From Octopus sinensis (taxonomy: Eukaryota), in NCBI RefSeq assembly GCF_006345805.1, contig NC_043002.1, positions 34,410,001-34,474,000 of the forward strand: a DNA stretch of 64,000 bases, written 5' to 3'. The stretch's first letter is position 1, and each line of letters starts with the position of its first letter. A program made the position numbers and the translations under genes. Shown in pieces: positions 2,177 through 62,332 of the stretch. Under the pieces are notes generated by a model, which did no database searches, was not told the origin of the DNA, and worked only from the letters and a program-made list of their open reading frames with translations.

Positions 2177-3117
2177 TTATCAAAGCTTATTACCGCTCAA
2201 CAAGATCCCGCGTATGCGTGTACGATGAAGTGTCGGAACCCTTCGAAATATGGTCTGGCGTTCGGCAAGGATGTGTTCTTTCGCCGACTCTTTTCAATTA
2301 CGCCGTCGACTGAATCACCAAAAATGCATTAAGGGAGTTCCCCGGTGTCACTGTTGGTCACAACTTTTCTGTCAAGGATCTAGACTATGCAGATGACATT
2401 GCGATACTTGGCGAAACATTTGCTGACGTCCAGTTTGTTATCATTGAGCTCCAGCGTGTTGCATCGCAGATTGGTATGAAAGCCAATGCCTCGAAGACCA
2501 AAATCCTCACAGCCGGCTTCGCCCCACCAGACAAAACACCCATTGTCCTCAATGGTGATATTCTTGAAGAGGTTGAGAGTTTCAAATACCTTGACGCCAT
2601 CATTACAGCCACAGGTCAAGGTGAGGCTGACATTAAAACACGAATCGACCTCGCTCGCCAAGCCTTCAACCGACTCAATGCACGACTCTGGTCAAGATCT
2701 GAGATCCAACGCACCACCAAAGTACGGATCTACCAAGCACTAGTGCGAACGATTCTCCTTTACGGCAGCGAGTCATGGCCGATGAGGGTGGAATATATTA
2801 AGCGACTAGAATCCTTCGATCACCTCTGTCTACGCCGCATCCTTCGTGTCCGATGGCATCACCATGTCTCCAACAATTCGGTGCGACACCAGTGCAAAAT
2901 CACCTCCCTCCGACAAATCAAGGCTGATCTGGAACCCAACCTAGGCCCCCATGTCTACGGCGTTCGCCGCTGGAATAGGGAGTGGTTGGAGATCACGCGG
3001 TCATTAGCCTCAAATCGCCAGGCCTGGTCGGTGTTTGTGAGCGATACAGCATTGAGGATGAGTTGAAGCCAGCTCGACCCACCCCGGGTGAATACTGTCT
3101 CAAGACAAGAAGAAGAA
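2177..3117 (+). mobile_element. 5'-truncated RTE-clade LINE (RT C-terminal part, pseudogenised)
   Basis: Translates to GVRQGCVLSPTLFNYAVD*, DLDYADD, KTKIL, FKYL and RIYQALVRTILLYGSESW..CLRRILRVRW. One in-frame stop, an apparent deletion near 2910, and a short (AAG)n tail. GC-rich relative to its flanks. Confidence 0.9.
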
Positions 3118-3905
3118 CGAATGATTTGTATATTTTGACTTGGCGTTCCATCTATTTGTATGGAGCTAGATGAATTCGGTTTTATATGTTTTGCATGGCG
3201 TGGATAATTTATTATAGTATTCGTTATCAACTAATGATTGTTTTATATGCAAGATTTACTAATTTAAAGATTCTTAATTGGACGCAAATGTAAAAACTCA
3301 TCTTAGGAGGGATTTGATTACAAATAATTTGTATCTACCAGGACTCTACTATCACCGTACACGCATAGACATCTTTTAGTTTTGTGTGTATACTGAGTAG
3401 CTGCATGTTTTGTTCCTTATTACTACATCTATATCTAAAACTTGAGTAGTGTTGAGTAGTGACTTTATTCTTGAGCTATATTGGTTAGTGCTATTTTTGA
3501 TATCATCTTTACAGATGCGAAAGCACAGATCTACCAACTTATTTCTGTCATAATATGGGACAATATTTAAATCAGGGTGGAAAACTTAAAACAGCAATAT
3601 CGTATGAAGCACTTAACTGAGAATTATTTACATATGTTGTGTCAGGGGTAATAGTTTTTAGACCTTGATTTTTTTTTTTATCTCTGTAACAACGAGTATA
3701 AATATGGCGTTTTGAAGAATACATTTGTTAATGAATACAGTAATTTACTTATCTATTTATTTATTGGTGAAATTGGATACGAACCAAGTCGGCTGCTACT
3801 CGGGTGTCCATTTTGCAGGACGCAGAAACATACGCACACGCGTGCGCACACCTGCACACGAGCACATATATAATATTTATATAAATAAATATATAATATG
3901 CACAC

Positions 3906-3940
<35 letters not shown>

Positions 3941-3941
<1 letters not shown>

Positions 3942-4234
3942 CTTCTCTGTGAAACTAATAAGCTTTTTTAAAACCTGTGATAAGACTGTGCATCATCATT
4001 AAAGAACTTTGGAAGTCTGTTTACAACCTCAATTTGCTTTTAATGAAATTATCTCCAATACTTCATGAGTGTAGCCTCACCCACTAAGATGTTTGGAGAA
4101 CTCATATGTATTTTAGCTGATGAGTACGGGACACTTTTATCTGCTGCAATATTTGCAACTTTTAATAAAGCCTGTCTTTGTATGAAACAATTGTACTAAA
4201 AACTAATCCATTCTTGTTGCTTCTTTTCTCGTTT
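3941..4234 (+). mobile_element. ~290-bp hammerhead-bearing insert in a (TA)n tract (Penelope-like pseudo-LTR fragment)
   Basis: Unique sequence flanked on both sides by TA microsatellite; contains a complete type I hammerhead motif. Confidence 0.6.
4111..4201 (+). ncRNA. Minimal type I hammerhead ribozyme
   Basis: Stem I ttttag/ctaaaa; core CTGATGA (4117-4123); stem II gtacggg../..tttgtat with a long loop; GAAA (4184-4187); palindromic stem III CAATTG; cleavage triplet GTA (4193-4195). Confidence 0.75.
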
Positions 4235-4294
4235 ATATATATACAGTTATACATATACAAGCATGTAGACATATATGCATATATATACATATAC

Positions 4295-4740: not shown

Positions 4741-5208
4741 CTTTCTACTATAGGCACAACGCTTGAAATTTGGGGAACTGGGTAAGTCAATTTCATCGAC
4801 TCCAGTGTTTCACTGGTACTTAAGTTATCAACCCTGAAAGGGTGAAAGGCAAAGTCGACTCCGGCAGCATTTGAACTCAGAAAGTAAAGACAGACAAAAT
4901 ATTGCTAAGTATTTTACCCGGCGTGTAAACGATTCTGCCAGTTCACCGTCTTCCAGTGATAATAATAATAATAATAATGATAACAGCAGCAACAAGAAGA
5001 ATGACAACAAGACATAACAATAATTATGACAATTATTTCTGTTATAGGCACAAGATCTGAAATTTGGTGGGGGGTGAGGCTGCTTGACTATATCGACCTC
5101 AGCACGCAACTGGTACTTCTTTCATTGACTCCGAAAGGATGAAAGGCAAAGTCGACCTCGGCGGAATTTGAAGTTAGAACGTGAAGACGGACGAAATGCT
5201 GCTGAGCA
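4741..5208 (-). mobile_element. Two copies of SINE family B (4741-4950 and 5037-5208)
   Basis: Reverse complement of the recurrent gtcgactttgcctttcatcctttcggggtcgataaa..aagtaccagt domain; the copies sit in AAT tracts. Confidence 0.8.
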
Positions 5209-61905: not shown

Positions 61906-62332
61906 CTAGGATGGAATTTATAAATATTTAATACATCGCAACGCGCGTTTCCACAAATCACATGCTTTTGACATCAGAGTCGGTATCCTTGGGATTAGTA
62001 CTTTATATTCCATATTATCACAGAGGGGTGCTTATCCTTTCTTGCCAGTATGAAGGCCAATTTAGCTATGTGGGTATTTCTGTATGTGCTTGGTATGTAC
62101 ATTGCTAGATTGGCCTTCATACAGGCAAAAAAGGATAAGCACTCCTCTATGATTCATCCAATAATACTGTATCGCCTGATGAAATGAATCAATGGTGATG
62201 ATCAACCGGATTCCCGCGGATAATGCGGAATATAATGTACTAATCCCAAGGATACCGACTCTGATGTCAAAAGCATGGGATTTGTGGAAACGCGCGTTGC
62301 GATGTATTAAATATTTGTAAATTCCGTCCTAG
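61906..62332. mobile_element. Inverted-repeat Penelope-like pseudo-LTR structure
   Basis: Left arm 61906-~62070 is the reverse complement of ~62100-62332, except for a ~65-bp block (~62155-62220) present only in the right arm; abuts (TA)n. Confidence 0.8.
62168..62306 (+). ncRNA. Type I hammerhead ribozyme with a large stem II insertion
   Basis: Stem I tgtatcgc/gcgatgta; CTGATGA at 62176-62182; stem II atgaatc/gatttgt (A.G closing mismatch); GAAA at 62287-62290; palindromic CGCGCG; triplet GTT. Confidence 0.7.

What the first reader, a model, noticed from the sequence alone, without database searches (positions are those of the whole stretch)
4111..4201. Unannotated minimal hammerhead ribozyme inside a 290-bp insert in a TA microsatellite
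Seen: all canonical core nucleotides (CUGAUGA, GAAA, GUA), a 6-bp stem I, palindromic CAAUUG in place of stem III, and a long stem II loop. The insert has no evident coding remnant and is bounded by (TA)n. Known: minimal type I hammerheads with a palindromic stem III are the hallmark of Penelope-like element pseudo-LTRs and cleave as dimers. Inference: this is a non-autonomous ribozyme-carrying retroelement (solo pLTR or retrozyme-like), unrelated in sequence to the other hammerhead inserts here.
Basis: partly seen in the sequence, partly recalled or inferred. Interest (0 to 1): 0.7.

Follow-up and report, generated by a model that had tools for sequence, protein, structure and literature searches.

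The report
Long-armed hammerhead in Penelope-like retrotransposon tail
This is the cut-off tail end of an abundant protein-coding jumping gene (a Hydra-type Penelope-like retrotransposon) that carries a conserved hammerhead RNA motif with an unusually long folded arm, predicted to cut itself weakly and only as a pair: an odd variant of a known pairing, not a new kind of element.

Summary
The hammerhead at 4111-4201 is real. Its core is complete, none of 200 shuffles matches it, and stems I, II and the palindromic stem III covary across subfamilies. The 295-bp insert is not a retrozyme or a separate non-coding family. It is the 5'-truncated 3' end of a ~4.6-kb Hydra-clade Penelope-like retrotransposon (RT plus GIY-YIG ORF) that inserts into (TA)n. 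Copies 98% identical to it run on into the endonuclease ORF. The ribozyme pattern matches 3,744 places in the genome (control 0). Copies end at two fixed sites, about 37 and 150 nt past the predicted cut. 32 of 33 head-to-head pairs use one site on each arm, which points to coupled priming at two internal start sites. Not shown: cleavage, expression, or an intact master ORF (0 of 17 starts). Hydra elements with hammerheads are published, one from Octopus; the long arm is the variant part. This scan has already noted long-armed Hydra hammerheads and the two-site rule on other DNA of this genome.

The parts
3910..3939 (.). left (TA)n target flank; 5' truncation junction
   Evidence: sequence; TRF AT array 3866-3940; other copies carry further element sequence here
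3940..4234 (+). 5'-truncated 3' end (3' UTR / pseudo-LTR) of a Hydra-clade Penelope-like retrotransposon
   Evidence: 43 near-full matches at 96-100%, the window included, among 40 scored of 1,627 candidates; continuous with the ORF in other copies
4111..4116 (+). hammerhead stem I, 5' strand
   Evidence: pairs with 4196-4201; 4 of 6 pairs change on both sides across subfamilies
4117..4123 (+). catalytic core CUGAUGA (C3-A9)
   Evidence: invariant in alignment A1, but part of the pattern used to pick those copies
4124..4183 (+). 60-nt extended helix II: basal stem 4124-4133/4173-4183 closed by G10.1-U11.1, apical hairpin 4145-4157
   Evidence: 5 of 10 basal and 2 of 8 apical pairs change on both sides
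4184..4187 (+). catalytic core GAAA (G12-A15.1)
4187..4194 (+). 8-nt palindrome ACAAUUGU standing in for stem III (predicted intermolecular helix)
   Evidence: variants ACGAUUGU and ACGAUCGU keep self-complementarity; duplex -6.4 kcal/mol
4195..4195 (+). A17 of the GUA triplet; predicted cleavage after this base
   Evidence: position from hammerhead consensus (established knowledge); cleavage not tested
4196..4201 (+). hammerhead stem I, 3' strand
4202..4234 (+). conserved terminal segment up to 3' end site A (about +35 to +39 from the cut), the inferred reverse-transcription start site used by this copy
   Evidence: same end in many copies; loose (TA)n ends at the matching place in public contigs (L064 3919)
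4235..4243 (.). right TA flank (first three bases also fit the element), running into TA-rich repeats to about 4418

Best explanation
The insert is the 5'-truncated 3' end of a ~4.6-kb Hydra-clade Penelope-like retrotransposon, and its conserved long-armed hammerhead likely cuts the element's tandem transcript weakly, only when two copies pair through the palindrome and probably with help from the element's own protein. Shown: the full element is pLTR with hammerhead, about 113-nt tail and 5' leader (209 nt from cut site to ATG), then one RT + Asn-rich linker + GIY-YIG ORF, a 3' UTR of about 1.35 kb, and the hammerhead again. Copies sit in (TA)n and end at two fixed sites (A about +37, B about +150), and head-to-head pairs carry one of each. 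Inferred: the endonuclease cuts both strands of a TA repeat. The RT, likely as a dimer, primes cDNA on each strand from two internal start sites on RNA that still spans the hammerhead and tail. The window copy would be one site-A product that stopped after about 295 nt and was joined straight to the TA target. A lone copy like this would be largely inactive as a ribozyme unless paired with another copy in trans.
For: Linkage to the ORF. Hydra motifs RWK, DKT, YRDD, CxCX5C, CxxC, CxH and no CCHH: against the clade definition in PMC8557442 section 11. Hammerhead at both ends of full-length copies, unit 4,598-4,652 nt in 5 copies. Covariation on 23 picked copies: 90.2% of cells paired and score 0.376, against shuffles 81.2% and 0.204 and slid controls of at most 48.3% and 0.110. 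Between two subfamilies 6 of 91 majority differences fall inside the ribozyme and 37 of 199 outside (p=0.007). End rule: 32 of 33 pairs, p=4e-9; the two arms of a pair differ by a median of 1 substitution against 6.5 to other loci. Precedent: two internal RT start sites, both strands extended, and a protein-assisted hammerhead in an Anolis PLE (PMC11167929); low, dimer-dependent activity of metazoan PLE hammerheads (PMC4209133).
Against: No intact ORF: 0 of 17 ORF starts read through to the endonuclease end, the longest being 633 aa, and two more starts in a sister subfamily were also broken. No full-length copy of the window's own subfamily was found (2 matches, both sister subfamily). The hammerhead fold is not the minimum-energy fold of the monomer (-9.1 or -10.1 against -12.8 kcal/mol; z -0.29). 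The number of pairs with two-sided change (12) was reached by 149 of 500 shuffles, and the 23 rows belong to a few related subfamilies, so they are not independent. The 'outside' count is inflated by one poorly aligned AT-rich stretch. In the Anolis PLE, hammerhead mutants did not affect insertion in vitro and no reads ended at the cut site. Copies end downstream of the cut, so uncut RNA is at least as likely a template as cut RNA. One pair (L129) is A+A, and L060 has a partial tail on its second arm. Pfam found no RT or GIY-YIG match in this element's frames.
Confidence: 0.85

Rival explanations
1. Non-autonomous retrozyme-like or solo-pLTR family that amplifies as its own short (circular) RNA and borrows a Penelope-like RT.
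For: The window copy holds no coding sequence. Several close copies also have TA on both sides (L002, L010, L012, L022). One 746-bp tandem was seen (L022/L023). No intact ORF or full-length copy of this subfamily was found.
Against: 5' ends are scattered, not fixed, and 5 of 30 nearest loci run into the ORF. Copies 98% identical are continuous with the GIY-YIG domain. The 746-bp tandem unit includes flanking microsatellite. Retrozymes are defined as tandem arrays without coding sequence (bioRxiv 10.64898/2026.07.22.740005).
Confidence: 0.06
2. The motif is kept as a folded RNA signal (RT binding or packaging, or RNA-RNA pairing through the palindrome), and cleavage is negligible or irrelevant to transposition.
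For: G10.1-U11.1 closing pair in this subfamily and no evident loop I-loop II contact (weakening effect recalled, not from a call). The monomer misfolds in prediction. Hammerhead mutants do not change insertion in the Anolis system. Copy ends lie 37 or 150 nt past the cut site.
Against: Core and cleavage triplet are kept with the stems across diverged subfamilies, although those copies were selected by a core pattern. 14 of 23 aligned copies have the canonical G-C, and published Hydra hammerheads also have G-U there.
Confidence: 0.25
3. Rolling-circle route: the two hammerheads of a tandem transcript cut out a 4.6-kb unit that is circularised, and RT starts 37 or 150 nt past the ligation junction.
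For: Both end sites lie in what would be the 5' part of the cut-to-cut unit, and 3' tails equal the 5' leader sequence. Proposed for PLEs in PMC4209133.
Against: An uncut tandem or read-through transcript explains the same ends, and was the dominant substrate in vitro for the Anolis PLE. No RNA evidence here.
Confidence: 0.2
4. Chance match to the hammerhead consensus in an AT-rich repeat.
For: No Rfam hit; folding z-score -0.29.
Against: 0 strict hits in 200 shuffles; 3,744 genomic matches against 0 for the control; compensatory changes in all four helices; the position in the element fits known PLE hammerheads.
Confidence: 0.01

Closest known systems
Hydra-clade Penelope-like elements and their hammerheads, including Hydra-1_Obim of Octopus bimaculoides (Craig et al. 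2021, PMC8557442; read: passages, section 11, supplement parts 1-2 of 59 and search passages)
   Same: C-terminal GIY-YIG without CCHH; RWK, DKT, CxCX5C, CxxC and CxH motifs; no IFD; (TA)n target; type I hammerhead near the 3' end with a self-complementary 3-4 bp stem III; G-U closing pair also in Penelope-13_HM and -17_HM.
   Different: Unit about 4.6 kb against 'generally <3 kb', owing to two Asn-rich inserts and a 1.35-kb 3' UTR. Helix II is 58-60 nt against about 26 nt or less in the 26 Hydra rows of File S2. A different family from Hydra-1_Obim (different hammerhead and protein, compared by eye). The same table holds a non-Hydra spike-moss PLE with a helix II region of about 53 nt, so long arms have a precedent.
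Metazoan PLE minimal hammerheads (Cervera and de la Pena 2014, PMC4209133; read parts 1-2 of 4)
   Same: Type I, in pLTRs, palindromic stem III, mostly dispersed single motifs from truncated PLEs, also close pairs on opposite strands; dimer-dependent low activity reported.
   Different: No unpaired base between A9 and 10.1 in the covarying register; G10.1-U11.1 in this subfamily; helix II far longer than 7-8 bp; 8-nt palindrome.
PAc, Poseidon PLE of Anolis carolinensis (Frangieh et al. 2024, PMC11167929; read parts 1-2 of 4 and passages)
   Same: Two 3' end sites downstream of the hammerhead that bound a 'tail'; AT-rich targets.
   Different: Tail about 113 nt and non-coding against 30-40 nt inside the ORF; hammerhead 209 nt before the ATG rather than overlapping it. 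In vitro PAc showed no strand difference in start site, whereas here paired arms take different sites in 32 of 33 cases.
Penelope elements of Adineta vaga (Arkhipova et al. 2013, PMC3846280; passages only)
   Same: Head-to-head inverted pLTRs with the tail optionally on one of them; Asn-rich inserts in the ORF.
   Different: Other clade; the tail rule is given qualitatively there, not counted, in the passages seen.
Metazoan non-LTR retrozymes (bioRxiv 10.64898/2026.07.22.740005, read parts 1-2 of 5; PMC7229834, search listing only)
   Same: Type I hammerhead; relation to PLE pLTRs; solo monomers occur.
   Different: This family encodes a protein, has variable 5' ends and does not form head-to-tail monomer arrays in the loci examined.

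Membership tests
Type I hammerhead ribozyme | Core C3-U4-G5-A6-N7-G8-A9, G12-A13-A14, A15.1-U16.1, H17 | tested here: met
Type I hammerhead ribozyme | Helices I, II, III around the core, helix I open | tested here: met
   covariation in all helices; helix III stable only as an intermolecular palindrome
Type I hammerhead ribozyme | G10.1-C11.1 closing pair (highly conserved, not absolute) | tested here: not met
   G-U in the window's subfamily; G-C in 14 and G-U in 9 of 23 aligned relatives; G-U also in two published Hydra hammerheads
Type I hammerhead ribozyme | Self-cleavage 3' of H17 | not testable with these tools
   needs an in vitro assay or raw RNA reads; only contigs were served
PLE minimal hammerhead (min-HHR) | Little or no helix III/loop 3, palindromic when present | tested here: met
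   ACAAUUGU / ACGAUUGU / ACGAUCGU
PLE minimal hammerhead (min-HHR) | Short helix II (7-8 bp) with an unpaired base between 9 and 10.1 | tested here: not met
   60-nt arm, register without the extra base
Hydra-clade Penelope-like element | Single ORF, RT followed by C-terminal GIY-YIG | tested here: met
   714-aa frame in L043 from RT to EN; alignment to about 700-aa homologues; no fully intact copy
Hydra-clade Penelope-like element | RWK motif; DKG changed to DKT | tested here: met
   RWK at 37 and DKT at 124 of the L064 frame
Hydra-clade Penelope-like element | CxCX5C linker, CxxC and CxH around conserved E/N, no CCHH | tested here: met
   CKCRIKSRC, CQLC, CVH; only one Cys inside VIY..YIG
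Hydra-clade Penelope-like element | No IFD insertion in the RT fingers | tested here: met
   no gap against homologues between FD and MGS; same spacing as Hydra-1_Obim by eye
Hydra-clade Penelope-like element | (TA)n targets; hammerhead in the pLTR; tandem and inverted copies | tested here: met
Hydra-clade Penelope-like element | Generally under 3 kb (descriptive, not strict) | tested here: not met
   unit 4,598-4,652 nt
Hydra-clade Penelope-like element | Placement in the clade on an RT tree with the published members | not tested
   the published sequences could be read but not entered into the tools; assignment rests on motifs
Non-LTR retrozyme | Non-coding element | tested here: not met
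   family continuous with an RT-EN ORF
Non-LTR retrozyme | Head-to-tail arrays of fixed monomers, each with a hammerhead | tested here: not met
   variable 5' ends; one 746-bp tandem that includes flanking microsatellite among 30 nearest loci
Non-LTR retrozyme | Circular RNA | not testable with these tools
   no raw RNA reads served
Neptune / Naiad PLEs | CCHH in the EN, CX2-5CxxC linker; N-terminal EN in Naiads | tested here: not met

The most novel reading that the evidence does not exclude
Insertion is a concerted two-site reaction. One RT-endonuclease dimer, held on the conserved 113-nt tail and possibly on an RNA dimer formed through the hammerhead palindrome, primes one target strand at site A and the other at site B. 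The 60-nt helix II is then a selected binding or folding domain through which the protein switches cleavage on. This would give the PLE hammerhead a structural role in building head-to-head insertions.
Probability: 0.2. Interest if true: 0.7.

Novelty: new variant of a known kind. Interest (0 to 1): 0.33.

Why it matters
What the hammerhead does for Penelope-like elements, and how their head-to-head, one-tailed insertions form, are open questions (PMC8557442, PMC11167929). This family offers thousands of young copies, natural compensatory variants and two end sites 113 nt apart that are easy to score, so both questions become testable. It also shows a class of hammerheads that Rfam models miss. 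As a single locus it is ordinary: one truncated copy of a known kind of retrotransposon.

Tried and rejected
Rfam at gathering score and at E<=10: no hammerhead family; only simple-repeat hits.
Neptune clade: my first guess, dropped after the motif check.
MITE or DNA transposon with long terminal inverted repeats: the arms differ in length and end site, and the family holds an RT.
G10.1-U11.1 as CpG decay of this one copy: rejected, the U is fixed in the subfamily.
TTTTAG|CTGATGA as a 3' splice site, as in Drosophila Penelope: rejected, sister subfamilies have GG there. No GT..AG joint appeared in the contigs laid, which cannot show absence.
Expression: no RNA holder listed. Contigs of runs only guessed to be RNA cover the pLTR and ORF start; this is not used as evidence.
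Structure of the tail: conserved in sequence but covariation term only -0.04 in 12 copies, inconclusive.
Search for a full-length copy of the window's own subfamily: 2 matches, both sister subfamily, both frames broken.
Pfam gave no useful hit on this element's frames.
A target-site duplication cannot be read in the TA repeat.
In one search the 5' ends of L017, L024 and L025 are underestimated because the reference copy has a short deletion (one search gives slightly longer matches), and four pairs of the 30 loci are duplicates or tandem neighbours.
Literature searches found no paper on this family or on 60-nt helix II Hydra hammerheads. The library lacks most subscription papers; Repbase, Dfam, and the supplements of the other papers and of the preprint were not seen.

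Full report
Observation. Stem I TTTTAG (4111-4116) pairs with CTAAAA (4196-4201), CTGATGA lies at 4117, GAAA at 4184, and the GUA triplet ends at 4195. The palindrome is 8 nt (ACAATTGT, 4187-4194). In 200 dinucleotide shuffles of the 64-kb window a strict descriptor gave 0 hits and a relaxed one 5. Rfam misses it at any threshold tried. The 91-nt monomer does not fold into the hammerhead by energy alone: -9.1 or -10.1 kcal/mol for the hammerhead fold against -12.8 for the best fold, and z = -0.29 for 4105-4210.

Copy number and conservation. The window is G000:C6:34410001-34474000 in a 2.7-Gb genome. It is likely an octopus: the nearest named protein hits are Octopus sinensis at about 70%. The insert had 1,627 candidates; 40 were scored and gave 48 matches, 43 near full length at 96-100%, the window included. 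A core pattern with a 45-70 nt gap matches 3,744 places, control 0. Of 85 near-full copies in the loci then held, 22 carry a ribozyme identical to the window's. Between two subfamilies about 84% alike, majority differences are 6 of 91 inside the ribozyme and 37 of 199 outside (p=0.007); the outside count includes one badly aligned stretch. I aligned 23 copies picked to span the subfamilies. For the named structure, 90.2% of cells pair and the covariation score is 0.376; shuffles give 81.2% and 0.204, and slid controls at most 48.3% and 0.110. Two-sided changes occur in 4 of 6 stem I pairs, 5 of 10 basal helix II pairs, 2 of 8 apical pairs and 1 of 4 palindrome pairs. The count of such pairs alone (12) is not above shuffles (149 of 500), and the rows are related. 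RNAalifold independently recovers stem I, basal helix II and the apical hairpin, but pairs the core with the palindrome in place of stem III. So the 'long loop' is a folded arm of 58-60 nt.

What the insert belongs to. Other copies continue upstream where the window has (TA)n. Among the 30 nearest loci the 5' ends scatter from 255 to over 1,700 nt before the cut site, and 5 run into an ORF. Copies 97.6-98.0% identical to the insert lie 1.1-1.2 kb downstream of a GIY-YIG domain on the same strand. Longer copies give the whole layout: hammerhead-bearing pLTR, tail and leader (209 nt from cut site to ATG), one ORF with RT, Asn-rich linker (29% Asn in the stretch measured) and endonuclease, a 3' UTR (1,356 nt from stop to cut in L043) and the hammerhead again. 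The unit is 4,598-4,652 nt in 5 copies. The protein has RWK, DKT, YRDD, CxCX5C, CxxC and CxH and lacks CCHH. These are the features by which Craig et al. 2021 define the Hydra clade, together with (TA)n targets and hammerheads (PMC8557442 section 11). That paper lists one octopus family, Hydra-1_Obim (2,507 bp, short helix II), and 26 Hydra hammerhead rows with helix II regions of about 26 nt or less; a spike-moss PLE in the same table has about 53 nt. Against an active autonomous source: none of 17 ORF starts reads through intact (longest 633 aa), two further starts are broken, and I found no full-length copy of the window's own subfamily. Decay or assembly indels could each explain this; I did not separate them.

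Two end sites. Copies end at site A, 35-37 nt past the cut, or at site B, about 150 nt past it; both abut TA-like letters of the element. I took every minus-then-plus pair within 8 kb among the first 100 listed of 2,491 matches, all on contig C1: 33 pairs. 32 have one A and one B end (p=4e-9). The exception, L129, shows the same flank on both sides and may be a later duplication. Of 11 further stretches, 4 held an opposite arm, all A+B; L060, from another set, has a partial tail on its second arm. The arms of a pair differ by a median of 1 substitution in 142 nt against 6.5 to other loci (36 pairs, two outliers kept). The window copy is a lone A-type product. A tail on only one inverted end is known qualitatively (PMC8557442 fig. 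2 legend; PMC3846280 passages). Frangieh et al. 2024 traced the tail to two internal RT start sites, with both target strands extended and no strand bias seen (PMC11167929).

Mechanism. Shown: layout, target, end sites, covariation. Inferred: the endonuclease cuts both strands of a TA repeat, and the RT, probably dimeric, primes each strand at a different internal site on RNA that spans the ribozyme and tail. Two cDNAs joined at their truncation points give head-to-head pairs; one cDNA joined to the target gives a solo such as this one. The ribozyme is predicted to need a partner, because stem III exists only as a palindrome (duplex -6.4 kcal/mol). In a full transcript the partner would be the second pLTR. 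Activity is likely low: metazoan PLE hammerheads cut poorly even as dimers (PMC4209133), and the Anolis one cuts only with protein and is dispensable for insertion in vitro. Since all ends lie past the cut site, uncut RNA or a religated circle must be the template; my data do not separate these. No expression evidence was obtained.

Earlier notes of this scan (unchecked AI notes, consulted after my own analysis) describe long-armed Hydra hammerheads and the two-site rule in other pieces of this genome; the sequence look-up found nothing. They agree with my reading but are not independent support.

Verdict. A real, conserved hammerhead in a truncated copy of a Hydra-clade Penelope-like element: a new family and a long-armed variant of a published pairing. 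Interest 0.33; the coupled two-site priming is the part most worth testing.

Noticed in passing
window 62171-62303 (+): A second, unrelated type I hammerhead: stem I ATCGC/GCGAT, CTGATGA at 62176, helix II region of about 104 nt, GAAA, 8-nt palindrome ACGCGCGT, GUU triplet.
   Followed up: no
L003:265-708 (-), also L004 and L013: GIY-YIG frame of a different Penelope-like family that looks Hydra-type, next to the inverted arm of this element (Pfam GIY-YIG E=0.0027, below cut-off).
   Followed up: partly
L043:4639-6780, L057:3046-4776: Two in-frame Asn-rich inserts (roughly 75 and 160 aa against homologues) between RT thumb and endonuclease; similar inserts are described in Adineta Penelope elements.
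   Followed up: partly
L043:8178-8290 and equivalents: The 113-nt tail keeps ATAATCACCC and GGTGCATC..GTACC motifs across all subfamilies aligned; candidate RT-binding site, covariation weak.
   Followed up: partly
L059:8098-8255, L008: A tandem duplication of about 100 nt just upstream of the insert-equivalent region in some copies; the same 'goes back 103' joint appears in public contigs.
   Followed up: no
L093, L094, L084/L085, L005/L006, L050, L003/L004: Whole insertions repeated in tandem or at a distance with their flanks: local duplications or assembly artefacts; they inflate copy counts.
   Followed up: no
window about 2443-3063 (L001:3-623, +): 207-aa frame resembling the C-terminal part of an RTE-type LINE protein (label recalled, not from a call), about 0.9 kb upstream of the insert.
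   Followed up: no
window about 4745-4940: Repeat that looks like a common octopus SINE-type element (recalled, not tested).
   Followed up: no
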